Shown here piece by piece: positions 3-27,971 of a stretch of DNA of 64,000 bases (its first letter is position 1; each line of letters opens with the position of its first letter). Made by a program: the position numbers and the translations under genes. The DNA is from a virus. Location of the stretch: positions 7,955-71,954 of the IMG/VR virus record IMGVR_UViG_3300040811_001208. One strand, written 5' to 3'. A model generated the notes under the pieces. The model was not told the origin of the DNA and searched no databases. It saw only the letters and a program-made list of their open reading frames with translations.

Positions 3-593
3 TATGTAACTTTAAGGGAGGCAAAGAAAATACTAGGACTTCATCCAAACACATTAAGAAAATATGCGGATGATGGAATTATAGAGTCAATAAAGACTCC
101 TTCTGGACAAAGAAGATTTAATGTAGAATCTTTCATAAACCAAAAACAAAATACAATACAAACAATTCTTTACTGTAGAGTTTCAAGTGATAAACAAACA
201 GACGATCTCCGAAATCAAAAAGATTATCTCCTCTCAAAGTACCCAGGAGCAGAGATCATTGCTGATGTCGGCTCTGGACTCAATTTTAAACGAAAAGGTT
301 TGCGTGCCATTCTGGAACGATTATTGCAAGGAGATTCAATCAAACTTGTGGTTGCCGAGCGTGACCGACTTTGTAGATTCGGATTTGAACTCATCGAATA
401 TCTTGTCACTAAAAACGGTGGAGAAATCGTGGTTCTCAATCAAAGTGAGTATAGCCCAGAAGGAGAACTTGTATCCGACATCTTATCAATCATCCATGTC
501 TTCTCTTGTAGAGTTCATGGGATGCGAAAATATAAAAATCAAATCAAAGAAGATTCGGATTTACCCAAACCAAACTCAAAGAGAGATTCTTAG
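3..593 (+). CDS. tnpA: IS607 transposase (MerR-like HTH + serine recombinase); start codon cut by window edge
   Basis: Frame read from base 3: YVTLREAKKILGLHPNTLRKYAD...ILYCRVSSDKQTDDL..DVGSGLNFKRKGL..DRLCRFGFEL. Confidence 0.93.
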   Translation, partial: YVTLREAKKILGLHPNTLRKYADDGIIESIKTPSGQRRFNVESFINQKQNTIQTILYCRVSSDKQTDDLRNQKDYLLSKYPGAEIIADVGSGLNFKRKGLRAILERLLQGDSIKLVVAERDRLCRFGFELIEYLVTKNGGEIVVLNQSEYSPEGELVSDILSIIHVFSCRVHGMRKYKNQIKEDSDLPKPNSKRDS

Positions 594-1674
594 AAAATGG
601 TTTGGGACTTCTAGGTACACCTACAATAAAACCGTAGATTATCTGAATGAGCCAGACACAATCGCTTCGTGGGGATCTATCAAAACCGGAATAATACATT
701 CTTTACCAGATTGGGCAGATAAAACTTCGTATCAAATTAGATCTGTTGCGATAAGAGATTGTTGTAAATCTTTTTCTGCTTGTAAATTGAAAAATAAAGG
801 AGTTAATCCAAATGATTGGCACAAAGTAAAATATAGAAGCAGAAGAAAAACAGTGCAGTCAATATATGTTCCAAAGACTGCAATTAAAAAAACAGGAATC
901 TACCCAAAATATTTGGGAGAAATGAAACTTAGTGAAGTGATTCCAGATAATATTATGGATTCAAGATTAACTCTAGAAAATGGTAGATATTTTCTAGTGA
1001 TTCCTTTCAAACAAGAAACAATTCCTTGCGAGAACCAAACAAGAGTTGTTGCCTTGGATCCAGGAGTCAGGACATTCCAAACTTTCTACAATCCAGAGTT
1101 TTCTGGGATGATTGGTGAAGGTGACATGGGAAGAATTGTGAGATTATGCTCTCATCTTGATTCTCTTATTTCAAAGAGAGATAAATCAACATCAAAAAGA
1201 AAATCTAGAATCAACAAGGCAATCAAGAGAATGAGAAATAAGATCAAAGATCTTATCGATGAAATACATCATAAAACTGCTAAGTTTTTAGTGGATAACT
1301 TTGATATAATACTGTTGCCTTCTTTCGATGTAAGTGAAATGACAAAACGAGCAAAAAGAAAAATAAACTCCAAAACAGCTAGATCAATGCTTACTTGGGC
1401 TCATTATAGATTTAAATGTTTCTTGAAGTCTAAATGTGAGGAGTTTAACAAAGTTCTCATAATCGTTAATGAAGCATACACATCAAAAACTGTTTCTTGG
1501 AATGGGAAAATTAATTATTCTTTAGGTGGATCCAAAATTATTAGAGACAAAGACCATTGTGTTTCTAGAGACATCAATGGTGCCAGAAATATCTGGACGA
1601 AAAGCGTCTCAAGAATTCTTGAGACTTTGGGAGATAGCCCCTCAGGTAGCAATACCTGTGCATTGTTAGCGTAA
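187..1674 (+). CDS. tnpB: IS607 TnpB RNA-guided nuclease, Fanzor-like clade; start uncertain (alternative ATG 517)
   Basis: KIRIYPN HTH, ALDPGVRTF (RuvC-I), ILLPSF, VNEAYTSKT, RDINGARNI. Confidence 0.92.
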   Translation: MINKQTISEIKKIISSQSTQEQRSLLMSALDSILNEKVCVPFWNDYCKEIQSNLWLPSVTDFVDSDLNSSNILSLKTVEKSWFSIKVSIAQKENLYPTSYQSSMSSLVEFMGCENIKIKSKKIRIYPNQTQREILRKWFGTSRYTYNKTVDYLNEPDTIASWGSIKTGIIHSLPDWADKTSYQIRSVAIRDCCKSFSACKLKNKGVNPNDWHKVKYRSRRKTVQSIYVPKTAIKKTGIYPKYLGEMKLSEVIPDNIMDSRLTLENGRYFLVIPFKQETIPCENQTRVVALDPGVRTFQTFYNPEFSGMIGEGDMGRIVRLCSHLDSLISKRDKSTSKRKSRINKAIKRMRNKIKDLIDEIHHKTAKFLVDNFDIILLPSFDVSEMTKRAKRKINSKTARSMLTWAHYRFKCFLKSKCEEFNKVLIIVNEAYTSKTVSWNGKINYSLGGSKIIRDKDHCVSRDINGARNIWTKSVSRILETLGDSPSGSNTCALLA

Positions 1675-18018: not shown

Positions 18019-18402
18019 CTATTTATGTAATTTCACTTCACTATAAGTGGAGTTTGTTTTTTCATTGATTTGTTTTTTGATTCTTGCTCTTTTATCATTT
18101 GTAATATAAACCGCTCTTGCAAGTTCAATAAATGTTGATGAGAAATCTTGTTGTTTTTCGAGTTCTCTTAGTTCATCTTCAATCACCCATAATTTTTGAT
18201 TGACTTCTTTGAGTGATTGAAGGTCTTGTTCATTGTAAACCTTATGTTCTTTTGCGATGTTTGTGAGGTCGGTGAGTTCTTTGGTGATATAAGGATTATT
18301 AGAGTATTGTGATTTGATTTGGAGTATGGTGATTTTATCGAGTAGTTCACCGACTGATATTGGAGTTGTGATTATCATTTTGGGACAAAATACAAGTAAC
18401 AA
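18019..18402 (-). CDS. DUF6165-like protein (start probably MIITTP)
   Basis: PISVGELLDKITILQIK..LWVIEDELR..VYITNDKRARIK. Confidence 0.75.
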   Translation of the reverse strand: MLLVFCPKMIITTPISVGELLDKITILQIKSQYSNNPYITKELTDLTNIAKEHKVYNEQDLQSLKEVNQKLWVIEDELRELEKQQDFSSTFIELARAVYITNDKRARIKKQINEKTNSTYSEVKLHK

Positions 18403-18412
18403 AGTACAAAGT

Positions 18413-18895
18413 TCAATAGGTTACACACCGGAAGGCACGGACACAGCGGGTGTTCGTCTTAGTGCTGCCGCCCGCAGTGCCATAATTATAGTCAACGAAG
18501 CACGCAATCGTAGCATTAAACTCCGTAGAAGACCAATAAGTGGCGCCGGAGAAGGAGTCCCAGTTTGCTCTACAACAATATCCTGGGTTTTGGAGTTGTG
18601 TTACAGAAGGAACAAACCAGTCACTGGGATTAAACCCAGCAGAAATCATTGCAGAACATAAGGTTGGCCAATCACAAACACAACACCTATCATCAACGAG
18701 TTCTGTTGTAGTTCCGTTCCAGGTAGCACTCACTTGAGTTGATGCAGGAGCAACAATCCAGGCAGTTCCTCCTGCCTTACAAATAATTGCACTTTTATCT
18801 GGTAGTACAGTTCCTACAGGACAAGATTTTATAAGTGAACTCAATGAATCTGGTGATGCTACCCACCAATCTGCTGGCCCAATCGTAATTCCCAT
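18413..18895 (-). CDS. C-type-lectin-fold protein, DGR target 1
   Basis: WFVPS..L, YWSSTE, C-terminal VRAFR; carries variable repeat. Confidence 0.85.
   Translation of the reverse strand: MGITIGPADWWVASPDSLSSLIKSCPVGTVLPDKSAIICKAGGTAWIVAPASTQVSATWNGTTTELVDDRCCVCDWPTLCSAMISAGFNPSDWFVPSVTQLQNPGYCCRANWDSFSGATYWSSTEFNATIACFVDYNYGTAGGSTKTNTRCVRAFRCVTY
18425..18565 (-). repeat. DGR variable repeat VR1
   Basis: 141-bp repeat shared with 24100-24240 and 27480-27620; differences concentrated at codon positions 1-2. Confidence 0.85.
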
Positions 18896-20372: not shown

Positions 20373-21181
20373 TTGTATAGCATCCTTTGTTTATCAATCT
20401 TTGTATAGTGCTTCCACCAATATCTCCAATCTATGTATGGGTCTTCTTCAAGGCGTCCTTGTAGATGTAAAGTCAGCGATGAAATAGGATTGATTCGCAT
20501 TACATCAGTTTCCCATATCTTGCAAATGGTGTTTCCTTCGTGTATTGTATCATTCTTATCGCCAGTTCCATCCCATTCTTGGTATTGAGTTGCAAGTGTT
20601 TCAAATAAGTTCCAATAAGTTCTAAAAATCATTGGAGAAGTCATAAAACTATAAGTTGTAAACCATCCTGTTCTCCAATGACGATATTTACCTCTCATTA
20701 TCAGTTCTGGTGATAGATGCTTTGCCTCATAATCTTCTGGTGAATCCCATAAGAATAAACATAACTGTTTTTCTATAGGATACTTTTGTTGTAAGAATAT
20801 AAACTCATCCAGTGCTTCTTTCAGTGCAGTGGGACAATGTAAGTAATCATCTTCTATAGAATACACCAAATCTACATTACTATCTCTACATAACTCAAAC
20901 TGTTTGAGTGCAGTATAGTGATGTCCTGTTCCATCTAACTTCACAAACTCATAAGAATGTTTGGACTGTTTGAATAATGAATGCAACTGATTTAATGTTT
21001 CTTGTGATGAGTTGTCATCTAATACCTTAAAATGAATCGTATGAGATAGCACCTGATTTGAGGCATTCACCAATGATGTAACACAACCTAAAAGTAACTC
21101 TGCTTTGGACACTGAAATGAACCGTGGAAACTTTGATACATTACCACGGTCACAGGTTCTTAGGATAATCTCCAATCTCAT
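20369..21181 (-). CDS. GT-A (GT2-like) glycosyltransferase
   Basis: VLDDNS, YSIEDDYLH. Confidence 0.7.
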   Translation of the reverse strand: MRLEIILRTCDRGNVSKFPRFISVSKAELLLGCVTSLVNASNQVLSHTIHFKVLDDNSSQETLNQLHSLFKQSKHSYEFVKLDGTGHHYTALKQFELCRDSNVDLVYSIEDDYLHCPTALKEALDEFIFLQQKYPIEKQLCLFLWDSPEDYEAKHLSPELIMRGKYRHWRTGWFTTYSFMTSPMIFRTYWNLFETLATQYQEWDGTGDKNDTIHEGNTICKIWETDVMRINPISSLTLHLQGRLEEDPYIDWRYWWKHYTKIDKQRMLYK

Positions 21182-21996
21182 CGGTATTGTTGTTGTGGAA
21201 CTGCAATAAGTCCTTGTGATTGATTATAAGGTTTCCAAAACTCCATTCTCATTTGTTGATACTTCTGTTTGATTTCTTCTGGGATATAATACTTACAATC
21301 TTCATAATAGACAACTGGTTTAATCTTATGGAGATTTGGAACACCAGATTTTAGGTCAAACTTTGGATTCTCATAATCCAGTTGGTTGAAATCGTGTTTA
21401 TAATAATCTTTTCCAATGAACTCATAAATATCCTTCATTGTCTTTTCTGGGAACTTACAGAGTGATCCATACTCAACAAAGTGTATCATCTCTGGGTTCT
21501 TTGCCATTCCTTCTTTTAATGAAGTATAATGTGGAATGATGGAACGATTATAAATCTCATCACTTCGCTCAAAGATATTCTGGGAATATGTGAAATCATT
21601 GATTTGTTTATAATATAATGGATTATGAGTCCATAACTTTTCAAATGAATTGATAATCTCATCAATGTTTCTTACACAACACAAGACCTTTGTAGTTGGG
21701 AAAACTTGTTTAAGTAATGAAGTATTACGAGTCCAACTCCTTGAGGTATCAAAGATTGTGGATTGTGATTGTTGAGAATAATAACCTTCAAATAAACTTT
21801 GAATAGTATTGATGCGTCTTTCTTCATTGATGTTGGGACTATTCTCACATTCACTTAATACTCTTATGGTGTCTTCTACAATCATCGATAGTGGAGAAGA
21901 CACATCTGCATAAAAATCTGGGTTTTGTCTTAATATCGAAGACAAAAGAGTAGACCCAGACCTAGGGAGTCCGCTGATAAAAAAATAGTTTTTCAT
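21178..21996 (-). CDS. PAPS-dependent sulfotransferase
   Basis: FISGLPRSGSTLL 5'-PSB loop, VRN...S. Confidence 0.85.
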   Translation of the reverse strand: MKNYFFISGLPRSGSTLLSSILRQNPDFYADVSSPLSMIVEDTIRVLSECENSPNINEERRINTIQSLFEGYYSQQSQSTIFDTSRSWTRNTSLLKQVFPTTKVLCCVRNIDEIINSFEKLWTHNPLYYKQINDFTYSQNIFERSDEIYNRSIIPHYTSLKEGMAKNPEMIHFVEYGSLCKFPEKTMKDIYEFIGKDYYKHDFNQLDYENPKFDLKSGVPNLHKIKPVVYYEDCKYYIPEEIKQKYQQMRMEFWKPYNQSQGLIAVPQQQYR

Positions 21997-21997
21997 T

Positions 21998-22597
21998 TCA
22001 ATTTTGTTGACTTGGAAGAACCATTAGATTGAATGAAATAGAAATCCGCTCATCATCGTGGTGGTTGGTTTCTACTGAATGTGGGATGTATGATGGGAAA
22101 AGAAGAATAGAACCTTCTTCTGGTTCAATCCGCATCATTTCTCCGGTAAACTGGTTCTTTTCTTTGACAAGTTGGCAACCACCCCAGAGACGATTGAGAC
22201 CTGGATTGGAAAGAACAAGTTTACCACTTTCTGGTGGTGCCTTAAGATAGAAAACACCTGATAGAATCTCTCCGTGAACGTGTTCACTATTCATACATTC
22301 CCTGGAGTCATTGAAGTTGACCCAGGCGTGAGTGAGAAAGATATTATTTTCAATGAAGTTCAGGTCTTGTACTGCCTGAATCGCCATCTCACAAACATAT
22401 TGGAAGAGAGGTCGAAGTTCTGCTTCGCCTTGTAGTGTAAATGGTGACTGATAACCAGCGATATTTGATTTATGTTCTCCTTGTGGATTCTTTTCTTTGA
22501 AGTTTCTTACGCAGGAAAGGAAAGAATCCTTATGTTGTTCAAAGTCAGGGTAAACCGACATCCATACTGGAGTGGAAAAGATTGGTAGTAGTTCCAT
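21998..22597 (-). CDS. 2OG-Fe(II) oxygenase (TIGR02466-like)
   Basis: WVNFN..HVH..LSGVFY..FPSYIPHSV..RISISFN. Confidence 0.85.
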   Translation of the reverse strand: MELLPIFSTPVWMSVYPDFEQHKDSFLSCVRNFKEKNPQGEHKSNIAGYQSPFTLQGEAELRPLFQYVCEMAIQAVQDLNFIENNIFLTHAWVNFNDSRECMNSEHVHGEILSGVFYLKAPPESGKLVLSNPGLNRLWGGCQLVKEKNQFTGEMMRIEPEEGSILLFPSYIPHSVETNHHDDERISISFNLMVLPSQQN

Positions 22598-22699
22598 AGT
22601 GTATTTCAGGTTTGTTGTTTATTCTATGTCATTAAGGGTATTTATGCAAGACTTGTCTCTAGAGTAAACTTGTAGTCTCGTGGAAAGTTTTTTACGATA

Positions 22700-23983
22700 T
22701 TGAACTACCGCGATGCTAAAGACATCGCGGATTCCTTCTTCACCGGAGTTTGCCTACAAGTAGGTCTTACATCTCCTCCAAAGGCAGTAACGCTAGTTCC
22801 TAACGCCATTAAATTCTTTGCTGCGTTTATATCTCTATCGTGAGTAGTTCCACAAGCATCACAAGTCCATTCTCTTATGTTTAATGGAAGTGAAGACTGG
22901 ATAGTACCACAAGAACTACAAGTCTTGCTTGAAGGATAGAACCTGTCAACTTGTATTAGTTCTCTTCCATACATAGTTGCTTTGTATTTTAGAAAAGTCA
23001 AGAACTGGTACCATCCTTGTTGAGATATTGCGCGAGCAAGTTTTCTATTCTTTACCATACCGGAAACATTTAAATCCTCAAGAACAATAACTTGGTTTTC
23101 GTTAATGATTCTTGTAGACAACTTATGTTGGAAATCTTCCCGGATGTTGACAATCTTTTCTTGCTGTCTTGCGACTTTTATTCTTGCTTTATTTTTGTTT
23201 TTAGAACCATTTTTCTTTTTAGAATGTTTCTTTTGTAGTTTCTTTAGTTTATTATAATGAGGTTTCAAGTCAGGCATCTTGACTTTTTCGCCAGTAGATA
23301 ATGTAGCAAAGGTTTCAATGCCCAAGTCTATTCCAAGAACTTTGTCGCAAAGTGGTAAGGTGTAGTTATTTGGGTCGTCAACCAAAATAGAAATAAACCA
23401 CTTTCCAGAAGAAGTTAAAGAAATAGTAATAGAACTAATGTCTTCACTTGGTAGTTGTCTACTCCAACGAATGTTTAACTTTTTCTTGGATTTCGCAATA
23501 AAGATTTCTCCATTTTTGTAAGAGAAACCTGCTTTGGTTAAGGTAATAGAGTTTCTATTACTCTTCTTCTTAAATCTAGGGAAACCAACTTTCTGGTTCT
23601 TCTTCAATCCCCTAAAGAAGTTATTGTATGCTTCTTGGAGGTTTTGAAGAGATTGTTGAAGAGCAACAGAAGAAACCTCATTCAACCAACTAGTTTCTTC
23701 TTCTTTCTTGAGGTTAGTTAAAAGGGAAGAAGTTTCACTATAAGAAACCGACTTTTGATTTGTAGTCCATTCCTTAATGCGTAAAGCAAGAAAGTGGTTA
23801 TAGACAAACCTGCTACAACCCATAGTCTTCCGCAGAAGAACTTCTTGGGATGGAGAAGGATAAAATCTATAACGAAATGCTCTATACATTCTTATGTGGA
23901 ATGCGATTGACTACATAAGTATTTAGTAAAGTTTGTTCCTTACATCCGCGAAACAAAAGACTTTGCGGTTTTACGGAACGCAG
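22700..23983 (-). mobile_element. IS200/IS605-family (IS1341-type, tnpB-only) element
   Basis: inserted 3' of TTTAT; LE hairpin CCGCAAAG..TTTCGCGG; RE hairpin CCGCGATG..CATCGCGG followed by TTCAA; removal restores flanking ORF. Confidence 0.85.
22705..23889 (-). CDS. tnpB: TnpB RNA-guided endonuclease
   Basis: RAFRYRFYP HTH, GIDLG, VLEDL, CSSC..CDAC Zn ribbon, DRDINAAKN. Confidence 0.95.
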   Translation of the reverse strand: MYRAFRYRFYPSPSQEVLLRKTMGCSRFVYNHFLALRIKEWTTNQKSVSYSETSSLLTNLKKEEETSWLNEVSSVALQQSLQNLQEAYNNFFRGLKKNQKVGFPRFKKKSNRNSITLTKAGFSYKNGEIFIAKSKKKLNIRWSRQLPSEDISSITISLTSSGKWFISILVDDPNNYTLPLCDKVLGIDLGIETFATLSTGEKVKMPDLKPHYNKLKKLQKKHSKKKNGSKNKNKARIKVARQQEKIVNIREDFQHKLSTRIINENQVIVLEDLNVSGMVKNRKLARAISQQGWYQFLTFLKYKATMYGRELIQVDRFYPSSKTCSSCGTIQSSLPLNIREWTCDACGTTHDRDINAAKNLMALGTSVTAFGGDVRPTCRQTPVKKESAMSLASR

Positions 23984-24087
23984 ATAAAAACTCTTTTAAT
24001 CAGTTCACTCACATCTCTATAGATTTTCAGTTCTTCTACCATATTAAAAAAATCCGTTTACAAAGTACAAGTAACAAAGTACAAAGG

Positions 24088-24558
24088 TCAATAAGTCACA
24101 CACCGGAAGGCACGGAAACAGAAGGTGCCCGCCTTACCGCTGGTGCTCGCAGAGCCATTAGTATAGCGAACGAAGCACGCACACGTAGCATTAACCTCCG
24201 TAGAAGACCAATAGTTGGTGGCGGAGAAGGAGTCCCAGTTGGTTCTACAAACATATCCTGGGTTTTGGAGTTGTGATACTGAAGGAACAAACCAGTCTCC
24301 TGGATTAAAACCACAATTAATCAGTTGAGTTTCTAGTCCACTCCACTCATAAACACAACACTTATCACCAACTTCTGTTGAGTTATATTGTCCTCCTGCC
24401 CATTGAGAACCTACTTGAGTGCAAGATGGTGCCACGATCCAGGCAGTTCCTCCTTCCTTACAGATGATTGTGGAACCATCAGGAAGATAAGTTCCTTCTG
24501 GGCACGCTGAAACTAGATTTGCTTGCCACCAAGGTGTTGGTCCAATAATTAATCCCAT
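24088..24558 (-). CDS. C-type-lectin-fold protein, DGR target 2
   Basis: paralog of 18413..18895; YWSSTE..FRAFRCVTY. Confidence 0.85.
   Translation of the reverse strand: MGLIIGPTPWWQANLVSACPEGTYLPDGSTIICKEGGTAWIVAPSCTQVGSQWAGGQYNSTEVGDKCCVYEWSGLETQLINCGFNPGDWFVPSVSQLQNPGYVCRTNWDSFSATNYWSSTEVNATCACFVRYTNGSASTSGKAGTFCFRAFRCVTY
24100..24240 (-). repeat. DGR variable repeat VR2
   Basis: 141-bp repeat aligned with VR1 and VR3. Confidence 0.85.
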
Positions 24559-24587
24559 ATTCTTTACCGTTTTTTATCTATTTAGTT

Positions 24588-26765
24588 CTAAGAAAGTGTA
24601 ACAATACCTGTTCTAATAACCCCATCAGTTCCTTTGACTCTTATGGTTAATGTAGTATTATTAGTAAGTTCAAAACTCATTGTTGAATTATTTGTTGGAC
24701 TTGATGTGCTCCCAAGACCAACAGTGGTTATTCCAGTTATATTTGCATTACCACGAACATCTAATGTTGATGTTGGAACTGATGTTCCTACTCCAACATT
24801 GCCTGATGGAGAAACTTCAAATGCAGTTTCTATGGTTCTGGTTCCCGTTGCATTAGTGGAAAGACCAGTAAATCTATTGATTCTAAAAAGACTGCTGTTG
24901 TCATTAACAACAGTTACAAGTTGTCCACCATTTAGTGGTTGGTCTAGTTCACCTTGGAATAATATAGAACCTCTTGTTGGGGCATAAGTGCTGACTCCAG
25001 GAGTGATTGGTTCTATATTGACTGACGTAGAAGATTGTCTATTGAAGTCTAATTGTTCACTAAAAGTAATTCTATCACGGATTAGAACATTTCCAGTTGC
25101 ATTTGTATTACTTCTAATATGAAAATCACTTTCTGGATTTGTGATTCCAATACCAACTCTACCACTTTGTGTTACATCAATTGCCGGAACTGAACTACCA
25201 CTAAAATACTTATAACCACCAACACTGAATATATTTCCTGTTGGGTCATTGGTTATTGCAAATAGTGATGCCGGGAATAAAGAAACACCATCAGTAGAAA
25301 TACCAGCAGGACTATCAAAACTGATTGCTCCACCTGCAAAAGTAACGGTTTCTATGCCAACCTGATACTCAAAGTTATTATAATGGTTAATATCAATCTG
25401 TTCTGTTGCGGTAGAACCAGCAGAAGTGACCCTTAGGTTTCCATTTACTTGTAACTTTGCTTGCGGATTCGTCGTTCCAATACCAGCATTACCTGATGCA
25501 CTTGCCTCAAAGATTGGTTTGCGGTTTAGGTCATTGACTCTAAAGATACTACTTGAAAGATTGTTTGAAATACTAAAGATTTGAGTTCCTCTATCAGTTT
25601 GGGCAGTCCCCACTGGAGCTTCAAAACTTAGAGCACCCTTATCACTAAACTTTGGAACAATACTGACATATTCTGTTGTTGTAGAGAATGGTGCTCTTAC
25701 ACTCAGTCTTCCATAAAGTTCATTATAAACAGAACTATTGGCAGTAGTGATTGATGTGCCAACTCTTAGAGCACCATAAGTTGTGACAATACCAAGAGGA
25801 CTTACACTGAATAGATTACGATTTTCAAATGAAGCAATTGAAAGATTGTCATAGTTTGCATAACGATAAACCGAGAATGCACTTTCACTTTGATTATTAG
25901 AAACAGAGAATAACTGGTTTCCTCCGTAGTTTGCGATTTCTAATAAACCATTATCCCTAGAAACCGCAGAGATTTCCATTTTTTCTGTTGATGCTGCACC
26001 AACAGAAGAACCAATCGTAACTTTTGGATTAAATGCACCAGAAGCAGAAACAACAAAGTCGGTTCCAATATCAAGTGCTTGTGAGCCTGATGCTTGTTGT
26101 ATTGTGAGTTTTGAGTTTGCTGATGCTTTTGTGGTTCCAATACCAACATTTTTAGAAAGAACTACATTACCTGTATCATAAACAGCAAAAGCAGAAGTTC
26201 CATCATTATCATTAATAACATAAAGTTCTCCAGATTCTGCTGGTTCTGTTGTGACACTGAAGAGATGGTCTGTATTGATTCCACTTTGAAATACCAAAGA
26301 ACCACCATTTGATTCATAGTGTTTCGCAGTGATTTGAGTGGTTGATGCTGCACCAGTGACAAGAAAGTTGACAAGTGGTGTTTTCAATATTGGAGTATCT
26401 ATAGAACTTTCTACAGAAACTTGCCGTATTGTTGTAACTCCACTATTAGATACTGATAATAAAGGGAGTGCATCACTATCACTAATGACATAAACCAAAT
26501 CTGGATTCCCAGAATCTGGTTCATTTGTGATTGAAAATATTAGATTATCTGTGGTTGGTTCAAAATCTTCTTTTCGATATACTAAAGAACCACCATTACT
26601 TGTGGTGTGAAGTGCAACAATATTATCGCCAATAGTTGACCCAACAGAGGTGATTTTTACATCTCCGGTTATGTCAAGAGTTGTCGTTGGATTTGTGGTT
26701 CCAATGCCAATCTTACTATCCTTCAGTACAAAATCTTTGCCAAATCTAACTCTGTTCTTAGGCAT
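24588..26765 (-). CDS. tail fibre protein
   Basis: repeated GIGTTNP/GNVGIG segments and repeated GG.L.F...LFS(I/V)TN modules. Confidence 0.75.
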   Translation of the reverse strand: MPKNRVRFGKDFVLKDSKIGIGTTNPTTTLDITGDVKITSVGSTIGDNIVALHTTSNGGSLVYRKEDFEPTTDNLIFSITNEPDSGNPDLVYVISDSDALPLLSVSNSGVTTIRQVSVESSIDTPILKTPLVNFLVTGAASTTQITAKHYESNGGSLVFQSGINTDHLFSVTTEPAESGELYVINDNDGTSAFAVYDTGNVVLSKNVGIGTTKASANSKLTIQQASGSQALDIGTDFVVSASGAFNPKVTIGSSVGAASTEKMEISAVSRDNGLLEIANYGGNQLFSVSNNQSESAFSVYRYANYDNLSIASFENRNLFSVSPLGIVTTYGALRVGTSITTANSSVYNELYGRLSVRAPFSTTTEYVSIVPKFSDKGALSFEAPVGTAQTDRGTQIFSISNNLSSSIFRVNDLNRKPIFEASASGNAGIGTTNPQAKLQVNGNLRVTSAGSTATEQIDINHYNNFEYQVGIETVTFAGGAISFDSPAGISTDGVSLFPASLFAITNDPTGNIFSVGGYKYFSGSSVPAIDVTQSGRVGIGITNPESDFHIRSNTNATGNVLIRDRITFSEQLDFNRQSSTSVNIEPITPGVSTYAPTRGSILFQGELDQPLNGGQLVTVVNDNSSLFRINRFTGLSTNATGTRTIETAFEVSPSGNVGVGTSVPTSTLDVRGNANITGITTVGLGSTSSPTNNSTMSFELTNNTTLTIRVKGTDGVIRTGIVTLS

Positions 26766-27400: not shown

Positions 27401-27467
27401 AGTTCTTATGGGGGTTTATTAGTGAAGAAAAATCCGTTTACAAAATACAAGGTACAAAGTACAAAGT

Positions 27468-27971
27468 TCAATAAGTCACACACCGGAAGGCACGGACACA
27501 GTAGGTGCCCGACTTATTGGTGCTGAACGCACTGCCATTAGTATAGTTAACGAGGCACGCACCCGTAGCATTAAACTCCGTAGAAGACCAATAGTAGGTG
27601 GCGGAGAAGGAGTCCCAGTTTGCTCGACATTGATATCCCAGTTGAAGTTGGGACAATGAGGGAACAAACCAATCACTTGGTGTAAATCCTGCATTTGTTA
27701 ATGCTGTTTGTAATCCACTCCATTCACTAACACAGCACTTATTGCCAACTGCCGTTGAGTTATATTGTCCTCCTGCCCATTGAGAACCTACTTGTGTACA
27801 AGATGGTGCAACAAGAATCGCAACACCATTAGTGGCACACATAATCGTAGAACCATCAGTTAAAGTTCCGCCAAGACCATCACTATTCAAGGTTGCCTTT
27901 ACCTTACAGTTGATTAATGCATCTGGGCTATCTTTCCACCACCAGTTTGTTGGGCCGACATATACTGTCAT
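27468..27971 (-). CDS. C-type-lectin-fold protein, DGR target 3
   Basis: paralog; YWSSTE..VRAFRCVTY. Confidence 0.85.
   Translation of the reverse strand: MTVYVGPTNWWWKDSPDALINCKVKATLNSDGLGGTLTDGSTIMCATNGVAILVAPSCTQVGSQWAGGQYNSTAVGNKCCVSEWSGLQTALTNAGFTPSDWFVPSLSQLQLGYQCRANWDSFSATYYWSSTEFNATGACLVNYTNGSAFSTNKSGTYCVRAFRCVTY
27480..27620 (-). repeat. DGR variable repeat VR3
   Basis: 141-bp repeat aligned with VR1 and VR2. Confidence 0.85.

What the first reader, a model, noticed from the sequence alone, without database searches (positions are those of the whole stretch)
22642..24042. TnpB element inserted in a DGR avd gene, with a guide predicted to cut intact avd alleles
Seen: directly after VR2 an ORF starts MVEELKIYRDVSELIKRVF. 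Removing 22700-23983 (left junction TTTAT|, right junction TTCAA|) restores the frame: ..IIVKNFPRDYKFTL, then ETSLA*. Established: L.IY...L...V..FPR.YKFTL resembles the Avd four-helix-bundle N-terminus, DGR cassettes often place avd, template and RT after the target gene, and TnpB guides come from DNA flanking the right end. Inference: this was the core DGR cassette, and the rest of avd, the template and RT were lost or moved. The TnpB retains its catalytic D/E/D and would use guide TATCGTAAAAAACTTTCCAC with TAM TTTAT. It could therefore cleave co-infecting relatives, or a second own copy, carrying a working avd.
Basis: partly seen in the sequence, partly recalled or inferred. Interest (0 to 1): 0.8.

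Follow-up and report, generated by a model that had tools for sequence, protein, structure and literature searches.

The report
TnpB transposon in decayed phage avd

Summary
Observation confirmed. Window 22700-23983 (- strand) is a 1284-bp TnpB-only IS200/IS605-type element. It lies directly 3' of TTTAT and ends in ...GGTAGTTCAA, with no target duplication. Syntenic relatives that read straight across the site fix both ends.

The interrupted ORF is the 5' end of a DGR avd gene. 10 of 17 related contigs carry target-avd-TR-RT-oxygenase here, and three of those avd products pass Pfam bAvd. In the window only 33-36 avd codons remain. The rest of avd, the template and the RT are gone, and the 72-kb contig holds no RT.

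Cassette decay recurs: 7 of 17 relatives lost it in other ways, none with an IS. The three VRs still carry the adenine-mutagenesis signature.

TnpB keeps residues aligned to the ISDra2 D/E/D triad and both CxxC pairs. Its right end is structured, with 9 covarying pairs.

Not supported: cutting of intact avd alleles. 0 of 10 intact relatives match the 20-nt guide (5-8 mismatches; 3 lack TTTAT). The exact 20-mer is absent from IMG/VR. No empty-site contig appeared in four runs. The target lies inside the retained stump, so the guide does not single out working avd. This is ordinary IS homing logic.

The parts
24088..24558 (-). DGR target gene 2 (156 aa) with a C-terminal variable region; weak Lcl_C/DUF1566 match
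   Evidence: ORF. Pfam Lcl_C E 0.0086, below the gathering score. VR alignment. 25 of 28 variable columns among the three window VRs fall where the relative's TR has A.
24043..24087 (-). Intergenic tract after the VR stop; its first ~27 nt are conserved after all three target genes
   Evidence: Alignment A1, columns 288-319.
23984..24042 (-). avd 5' fragment (codons 1-19 plus 2 nt); its last five bases, 23984-23988, are the TAM TTTAT
   Evidence: Avd HMM test.
22700..23983 (-). TnpB-only IS200/IS605-type element, 1284 bp, no target-site duplication
   Evidence: Ends fixed by empty-site relatives. Single copy in the contig. 19 related copies at 80-96% in metagenome contigs.
23890..23983 (-). 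Left end (LE): 4 variable nt, then a conserved GTTCCGTAAAACCGC... imperfect hairpin
   Evidence: the LE is shared by 8 loci. The DNA fold is only modest, z -0.91.
22705..23889 (-). tnpB, 394 aa; D188/E271/D353 and the CSSC/CDAC zinc-ribbon cysteines are kept
   Evidence: Pfam. phmmer against ISDra2 TnpB structures 8bf8/8ex9/8exa and 8h1j, E 5e-82, with alignment. Residue positions.
22700..22860 (-). Right end (RE) and putative omega-RNA scaffold; a 9-bp terminal hairpin lies 8 nt before the end
   Evidence: RNAalifold over 12 copies: 41 pairs, 9 with compensatory changes. RE hairpin DNA fold z -2.85. No Rfam family matches.
22680..22699 (-). The 20 nt flanking the RE: the predicted guide segment, and the target once joined to the TAM
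   Evidence: The position follows from TnpB biology (passages of PMC10055086). It is unique in the window at up to 3 mismatches.
22651..22699 (-). avd codons 20 to about 33-36; homology to avd is lost 40-49 nt past the IS
   Evidence: residues 34-38 are identical in 0-1 of 5.
22598..22655 (-). Deletion junction, stop TAA at 22642-22644, and an intergenic tract shared with cassette-less relative L004
   Evidence: 51 of 63 aligned columns are identical to L004. L007, L016, L017 and L091 give 33-35 of 64-66.
21998..22597 (-). 2OG-Fe(II) oxygenase gene, the conserved right-hand neighbour of the cassette
   Evidence: Pfam 2OG-FeII_Oxy_5, E 7e-22. Synteny in 17 relatives.
18413..18895 (-). DGR target gene 1 with VR
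27468..27971 (-). DGR target gene 3 with VR

Best explanation
The locus is the wreck of a phage diversity-generating retroelement (DGR) with a selfish transposon lodged in it.

In this lineage of T4-like aquatic myoviruses the DGR core sits between a lectin-fold target gene and a 2OG-Fe(II) oxygenase gene. The core consists of avd, the template repeat and the reverse transcriptase. In the window's phage a deletion of about 1.5 kb removed everything from avd codon 33-36 to the end of the RT. It left a stump.

A 1284-bp TnpB-only IS200/IS605-type element lies in that stump at codon 20, immediately 3' of TTTAT.

Shown: the ends, the TAM, the loss of the cassette, the intact RuvC and zinc-ribbon residues, and a conserved structured right end.

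Inferred: the element makes an omega RNA whose 3' 16-20 nt are copied from the flanking avd sequence. TnpB would then cut any DNA that carries TTTAT joined to that sequence. That means the vacant site, whether produced by excision or present in a near-identical co-infecting genome. The IS-bearing copy would then repair the break. This is the ordinary retention and homing logic of the family. It is aimed at this site because the IS happens to be there, not because the site is avd.

The order of insertion and deletion is unresolved. The three variable regions were diversified recently by a DGR and are now most likely frozen.
For: Ends. Relatives read TTTAT followed directly by the right-flank homologue.

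Synteny and cassette:
- L007 has target, target, avd (111 aa), TR, RT (343 aa, RVT_1) and oxygenase.
- Its TR differs from its three VRs at 50 positions, all of them TR adenines.
- 10 of 17 relatives have the full cassette.
- The window has no RT in 71,954 bases. No fourth TR-like copy exists.

VR signature in the window:
- 25 of 28 variable columns lie at positions of TR adenines.
- 27 of 28 lie at codon positions 1 or 2.
- Only 3 of 89 non-A columns vary.
- The VRs of cassette-less L004 carry indels and scattered changes.

TnpB:
- Three Pfam domains match.
- E 5e-82 to the ISDra2 TnpB structures, with D/E/D and both CxxC pairs aligned.

Right end: 9 of 41 predicted pairs show compensatory changes across 12 copies.

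Family behaviour:
- 19 loci at 80-96% lie in different flanks.
- The RE is conserved in 16 of 17. TTTAT abuts a conserved LE in 8 loci.

Assembly: contigs from 3 runs bridge both junctions.

Mechanism of donor-joint cleavage: passages of Meers et al. (PMC10055086).
Against: - No RNA data exist, so the omega RNA and its guide length are inferred. No Rfam model exists.
- No vacant site with the exact guide was found in IMG/VR, in the 78 loci fetched up to that call or in four runs.
- No Y1 TnpA is present in the contig. Excision, and therefore restorative homing, would need a transposase supplied in trans.
- The contig is only 35% complete by CheckV. A second TR-RT elsewhere in the genome cannot be excluded.
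- The LE hairpin is weak on folding (z -0.91).
- Intact catalytic residues do not prove activity. Meers et al. found the IS608 TnpB inactive in their assay (passage).
Confidence: 0.75

Rival explanations
1. The IS hit a working avd and killed the DGR, and the rest of the cassette then decayed. Its guide now acts as a drive or weapon against co-infecting relatives that carry a working avd.
For: - The window's three VRs are still clean: 3 of 89 non-A columns vary and there are no indels. DGR activity therefore stopped recently, which fits a recent knockout.
- The TAM TTTAT is present at the same avd position in 7 of 10 intact relatives.
- The IS family is mobile between phages.
- Homing into co-infecting phages is discussed as theory in a 2026 review (PMC13565253, passages).
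Against: - 0 of 10 intact avd alleles match the guide. They carry 5-8 mismatches, including positions 4 and 7 near the TAM.
- The target sequence survives in the stump, so the guide is blind to whether avd is intact.
- 7 of 17 relatives lost the cassette without an IS.
- The tract right of the junction is close to that of cassette-less L004. This fits a deletion or recombination that owes nothing to the IS.
Confidence: 0.2
2. The DGR is still working. Only this copy of the accessory genes is dead, and a second avd-TR-RT elsewhere in the unsequenced 65% of the genome serves the three VRs.
For: - The contig is 35% complete.
- The VR scaffolds are nearly identical, as expected under ongoing homing.
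- L007 shows that one cassette can serve a remote target several kb away.
Against: - In 10 of 10 relatives with a cassette, it lies at this one locus.
- The complete 243-kb relative G001 has a frameshifted avd stump here and no RT anywhere.
- No TR-like fourth copy lies in the 72 kb.
Confidence: 0.1
3. The TnpB is a domesticated or nuclease-independent factor, for example a guide-directed repressor like the TldR proteins, and not a mobile-element nuclease.
For: It stands alone without TnpA. It is co-oriented with the phage genes.
Against: - The catalytic D/E/D and the zinc ribbon are intact.
- LE and RE are intact, and close copies lie at many different sites in other phages. That is the behaviour of an active IS.
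- The flank it would bind is a pseudogene stump.
Confidence: 0.05

Closest known systems
ISDra2 TnpB / IS200-IS605 family (Deinococcus radiodurans), and TnpB-only IS1341-type elements
   Same: - Same domain order, and E 5e-82 to the solved ISDra2 TnpB.
- D/E/D and the zinc ribbon are kept.
- Insertion 3' of a 5-nt TAM without duplication.
- RE hairpin a few nt before the end.
- The ORF's 3' end overlaps a structured RE from which the guide RNA would run into the flank.
   Different: - The TAM is TTTAT here. TTGAT for ISDra2 is recalled, not tested.
- No Y1 tnpA lies in the element, in the contig or in a complete related phage genome.
- The close family (80-96%) was found only in phage-like metagenome contigs. 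The best match in 185,579 bacterial and archaeal species genomes is 46%.
Bordetella phage BPP-1 type DGR (target, avd, TR, RT)
   Same: - Relatives have target-avd-TR-RT in that order.
- Their mismatches are adenine-only (50 of 50 in L007).
- Their Avd proteins pass Pfam bAvd, and their RT matches RVT_1.
   Different: - The carrier is a T4-like, presumably lytic, myovirus. Its nearest cultured kin are cyanomyoviruses at about 37% in a tail protein.
- There are three dispersed small lectin-fold targets.
- In the window the core is deleted, so only orphan VRs and an avd stump remain.
Free-standing homing endonucleases of T-even phages (Seg, Mob) and 'transposon non-restorative homing'
   Same: A nuclease gene in a T4-like genome could cut the cognate site in a co-infecting relative and be copied in by repair. 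The concept is in review PMC13565253 (passages).
   Different: Recognition would be by guide RNA plus TAM, not by protein. Nothing here shows that it happens.

Membership tests
IS200/IS605-family TnpB element | TnpB with HTH, OrfB_IS605 (RuvC) and zinc-ribbon TNB domains | tested here: met
   Pfam scores of 64.5, 89.8 and 93.2 bits, all above cut-off.
IS200/IS605-family TnpB element | RuvC catalytic D/E/D | tested here: met
   D188, E271 and D353 align with the D, E and D of ISDra2 TnpB in 8bf8/8exa. The ISDra2 residue numbers 191/278/361 are recalled from the literature.
IS200/IS605-family TnpB element | Insertion 3' of a short TAM with no target-site duplication | tested here: met
   Empty-site relatives. 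TTTAT abuts the conserved LE in 8 of 19 related loci.
IS200/IS605-family TnpB element | Subterminal hairpins at LE and RE | tested here: met
   RE: a 9-bp hairpin, z -2.85, with compensatory changes. LE: an imperfect hairpin, only z -0.91, so the LE part is weak.
IS200/IS605-family TnpB element | Y1 TnpA transposase (autonomous form) | tested here: not met
   PF01797 is absent from the contig and from 5 relatives. This makes the element a TnpB-only, non-autonomous member.
IS200/IS605-family TnpB element | Omega/reRNA expressed from the RE, with its guide from the flank | not testable with these tools
   There is structure and covariation only, no Rfam model, and no RNA runs were laid.
Diversity-generating retroelement (functional) | DGR-type reverse transcriptase | tested here: not met
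   No match in the 71,954-base contig. Present in 10 of 17 relatives.
Diversity-generating retroelement (functional) | TR/VR pair with adenine-specific mismatches | tested here: inconclusive
   There is no TR in the contig. By proxy, 25 of 28 variable VR columns lie at adenines of the L007 TR. This shows past activity, not a present TR.
bAvd (PF22296) | Full four-helix-bundle protein of about 110 aa matching the profile | tested here: not met
   Relatives pass at 59-70 bits. The window keeps only 33-36 homologous codons, split by the IS. It is a pseudogene fragment, not a member protein.

The most novel reading that the evidence does not exclude
This IS belongs to a TnpB-only family confined to T4-like aquatic phages. 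The family spreads from phage to phage during co-infection by RNA-guided cutting of vacant sites. That is non-restorative homing without any TnpA, which would make TnpB the programmable counterpart of the Seg/Mob homing endonucleases.

Hints:
- Copies lie beside portal, terminase, primase and fibre genes.
- No close copy exists in 185,579 bacterial and archaeal species genomes.
- No Y1 TnpA exists in a complete 243-kb relative that carries five TnpB genes.
- Two phages, L044 and L049, carry the IS at the same site. It is 100% identical over 1200 nt while their flanks are only 77-96% identical.

On this reading the avd insertion is one snapshot of such a drive.
Probability: 0.2. Interest if true: 0.7.

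Novelty: new member of a known kind. Interest (0 to 1): 0.42.

Why it matters
The finding gives a cleanly resolved natural case of two mobile systems meeting: a DGR that has just died and a TnpB element sitting in its accessory gene. Exact ends, the TAM and the predicted guide are all known. That makes a cheap interference assay possible for an uncultured phage's TnpB with an AT-rich TAM.

More broadly, the relatives show that DGR cores in this T4-like lineage are lost again and again, in 7 of 17 loci plus the window. They also show that a TnpB-only IS family circulates among these phages without a transposase of its own. If that circulation is guide-driven homing, it would be the first natural phage example of an idea so far stated only as theory (PMC13565253).

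If not, this is an ordinary IS in a pseudogene.

Tried and rejected
Searches that found nothing:
- GenBank phages. Megablast of window 21000-26000 gave no match. blastn of the IS gave only short 69-88% patches in unrelated phages. No cultured relative helps.
- Exact 20-nt guide. It gave 0 hits in IMG/VR. Among the 78 loci held at that call, only the two loci from the own contig matched. The window holds no second site at up to 3 mismatches.
- Rfam. Only two sub-threshold chance matches (22 and 16 bits, against gathering scores of 60 and 87).
- Single-protein TnpB scan of IMG/VR. It gave one 49% relative. Close copies came only from the metagenome scan.

Runs X1-X4:
- No joint from 23984 to 22699 was seen. 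These are contigs, which drop rare variants, so this says little.
- One X1 contig joins 22618 to 24179 with 6 other letters in 62. I read it as a coexisting cassette-less relative, not as an excision product.
- Loose ends at 23946 and 23979 in all four runs look like other IS copies in other flanks.

Ideas considered and dropped:
- A TnpB cut caused the deletion. The junction lies 40-49 nt past the RE. That is not where TnpB is said to cut, a position I recall rather than tested. Relatives also deleted the cassette without an IS.
- Microhomology at the deletion junction (ACTCTAG in the window against ACTAG in L004). It is too short to weigh.
- Assembly chimera. Rejected because contigs bridge the junctions in several runs.

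Limits:
- The identical IS in L044 and L049 could partly reflect collapse of a repeat during metagenome assembly. I could not test this.
- Literature. Searches for TnpB with bacteriophage and homing, with 'diversity-generating', and for DGR with cyanophage listed no paper whose title or abstract start describes a TnpB element in an avd gene. I read only listings, plus passages of three papers.
- I did not open any supplements. DGR catalogues built on IMG/VR may already list the relatives' cassettes in their supplements.
Full report
WHAT IS THERE

The window is bases 7955-71954 of a 71,954-base IMG/VR virus contig, rated 35% complete by CheckV. Its genes run on the - strand. PHROG hits to baseplate, tail and helicase families mark it as a T4-like myovirus. 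So does a tail protein whose nearest cultured relatives are Synechococcus and Prochlorococcus myoviruses, at about 37% identity. Four estuary runs from four studies hold half or more of the sampled words of the region.

THE OBSERVATION

Directly after the second small target gene (24088-24558) an ATG at 24042 opens an ORF. After 19 codons and two bases this ORF runs into foreign DNA.

The foreign DNA is 22700-23983. It carries a 394-aa ORF (22705-23889) with the three Pfam domains of TnpB.

Removing exactly these 1284 bases restores a 38-codon frame. The boundaries read ...TTTAT| and ...TTCAA|.

THE ENDS ARE FIXED BY NATURAL EMPTY SITES

I used the downstream 2OG-Fe(II) oxygenase as a handle. 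Later I also used the relatives' Avd. Together they fetched 17 related contigs.

In L007 the order is:
- target and target (156 aa each);
- a 111-aa protein;
- a non-coding stretch rich in AAC codons;
- a 343-aa reverse transcriptase;
- the oxygenase.

The 111-aa proteins of L007, L012 and L014 pass Pfam bAvd at 63, 70 and 59 bits, with a cut-off of 40. The RT hits RVT_1.

The L007 template differs from its three variable regions at 19, 14 and 17 positions. All 50 are template adenines. That is a textbook DGR.

These relatives read ...TTTAT followed at once by the homologue of the window's right flank, in frame. The IS therefore starts right after TTTAT and ends at TTCAA, with no duplication.

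The window's joined peptide scores 63 bits against an HMM of four such Avds. The best of 1037 decoy ORFs scores 8 bits. 27-29 of its first 33 residues are identical to them.

WHAT WAS LOST

Homology to avd stops 40-49 nt past the IS, at codon 33-36. A few unrelated codons and a stop follow.

Next comes a tract of about 55 nt before the oxygenase. It matches the intergenic tract of L004, a relative with no cassette at all, in 51 of 63 aligned columns. Cassette-bearing or otherwise decayed relatives match in only 33-35 of 64-66 columns.

The contig has no RT and no fourth TR-like copy.

Cassette loss is common in the lineage. 10 of 17 relatives are complete. The other seven are:
- L015, which keeps avd 1-94 only;
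- L016, which fuses avd 1-61 to RT 285-343;
- L017, with a frameshifted 48-codon stump;
- L091, with 42 codons;
- L006, with about 14 codons;
- L004 and L005, with nothing.

Some of the 17 are near-duplicates of each other: L010/L011, L012/L013 and L086/L087.

L017 lies in a complete 243-kb genome with terminal repeats, and that genome has no RT anywhere. None of these decayed loci holds an IS.

THE VARIABLE REGIONS

The three window targets share a 3' block. Of its 129 aligned columns, 28 vary. 25 of those 28 lie where the L007 template has A, and 27 of 28 lie at codon positions 1 or 2. Only 3 of 89 non-A columns vary.

L004's variable regions, by contrast, carry indels and scattered changes.

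The window's DGR was therefore active until recently.

THE ELEMENT

- TnpB aligns over residues 3-387 with the solved ISDra2 TnpB (E 5e-82).
- D188, E271 and D353 sit on that enzyme's RuvC acidic residues. Both CxxC pairs are kept. The ISDra2 residue numbers are recalled.
- The last 160 nt fold into a conserved structure across 12 copies, with 41 pairs, 9 of them showing compensatory changes. A 9-bp hairpin lies 8 nt from the end.
- No Rfam family covers it.
- No Y1 TnpA is in the contig.

THE FAMILY

About 85 protein clusters at 74-94% identity exist in metagenomes. A metagenome scan gave 19 loci at 80-96%.

- The right end ...GGTAGTTCAA is present in 16 of the 17 loci that reach it.
- TTTAT abuts a conserved left end in 8 loci. 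The left end is four variable bases followed by GTTCCGTAAAACCGCG.
- In the other loci the left end has diverged and my extrapolated boundary is unreliable.
- All flanks differ from the window's.
- Of the ten flanking ORFs scanned, seven hit portal, terminase, primase, virion-structural or tail-fibre families, two hit families of unknown function and one hit none.
- The best match in 185,579 bacterial and archaeal species genomes is 46%.

THE CLAIM ABOUT INTACT AVD ALLELES

By the known logic of the family, the guide is the 16-20 nt right of the RE, and the target is TAM plus that sequence. That is the vacant site (Meers et al., PMC10055086, passages).

- Against the 10 intact avd alleles the 20-mer has 5, 7, 7, 6, 6, 6, 8, 6, 7 and 7 mismatches.
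- 3 of the 10 have TTCAT.
- The best two alleles still differ at positions 4 and 7.
- Meers et al. report that binding tolerates mismatches. I recall, but did not check, that cleavage needs about 12 matched TAM-proximal bases.
- The exact 20-mer is absent from IMG/VR.
- No vacant-site contig was seen in four runs.
- The TAM and target both lie inside the surviving stump, so the guide cannot distinguish a working avd from a dead one.

The claim is therefore plausible for near-identical siblings only. It is not specific to working avd, and nothing found here supports it.

ORDER OF EVENTS

The clean VRs argue that the loss is recent. The L004-like right side argues for a deletion or recombination that owes nothing to the IS. 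An X1 contig from a cassette-less relative in the same sample points the same way. I leave the order open.

COMPARISON AND NOVELTY

The element is a TnpB-only member of IS200/IS605. The locus is a decayed BPP-1-type DGR in an unusual carrier. TnpB genes in phages are known, for example in cyanophage A-1(L) (10.64898/2026.02.14.705889, passages), and some are annotated in GenBank phages. Homing into co-infecting phages is named as theory in PMC13565253 (passages).

My three literature searches listed no paper whose title or abstract start describes a TnpB element in avd. I did not open the listed papers beyond three. This is a new member of known kinds.

THE BOLDER READING

The bolder reading is a phage-restricted, TnpA-less family that spreads by guide-directed homing. 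It rests on the hints and needs the tests listed.

VERDICT

Interest is moderate.

Noticed in passing
window 3-1674 (+): A second, unrelated mobile element at the window's start. An ORF open at the window's start combines a MerR-type HTH with a serine resolvase domain (3-593). It overlaps a 495-aa ORF with the TnpB domains HTH_OrfB_IS605 and Cas12f1-like_TNB, plus OrfB_IS605 below cut-off. The layout is IS607-like.
   Followed up: partly
L044:3405-4690 and L049:3405-4690: Two metagenome contigs from different samples carry the IS at the same site. The IS is 100% identical over 1200 nt, while the flanking phage DNA is 77-96% identical and differs within a few bases of both ends. This means either recent horizontal arrival at one site or collapse of a repeat in assembly.
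   Followed up: partly
L046:2184-3467 and L047:3407-4690: The two contigs share the left flank and the IS at 99.7% identity. Their right flanks differ completely from 3 nt past the RE. This is a rearrangement that starts at the right end.
   Followed up: no
G001 (contig of L017), loci L074-L078: A complete 243-kb relative with terminal repeats carries five TnpB genes (43-49% identical to the window's). It has no Y1 TnpA and no DGR RT.
   Followed up: partly
L054:2231-2360 and L055:1695-1824: The right-end motif occurs twice, 129 nt apart. The tnpB match is about 125 nt longer than in other copies. This is a tandem duplication of the RE region.
   Followed up: no
L007:777-8139: An apparently active DGR in a T4-like phage contig. 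One template serves three targets, one of them about 5 kb beyond the RT. All 50 mismatches are at adenines. The nearest Avds in cultured phages are only about 31% identical and come from Pseudomonas, Bacteroides and Burkholderia phages.
   Followed up: partly
L043:4481-6898 (-): The portal gene beside an IS copy is 806 aa. Residues 264-372 match a ribonucleotide-reductase PHROG, not portal. This may be an intein or another insert.
   Followed up: no
window 18385-18412, 24060-24087, 27440-27467: About 27 nt directly after each VR stop codon are nearly identical in all three targets. A CTTGT-rich tract follows the VRs of L007 too. This may be the cis element for homing.
   Followed up: no
window 22618/24179, run X1: One contig of a coexisting relative (6 differences in 62 nt) joins the oxygenase leader straight to the target's VR. 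It has neither the avd stump nor the IS.
   Followed up: no
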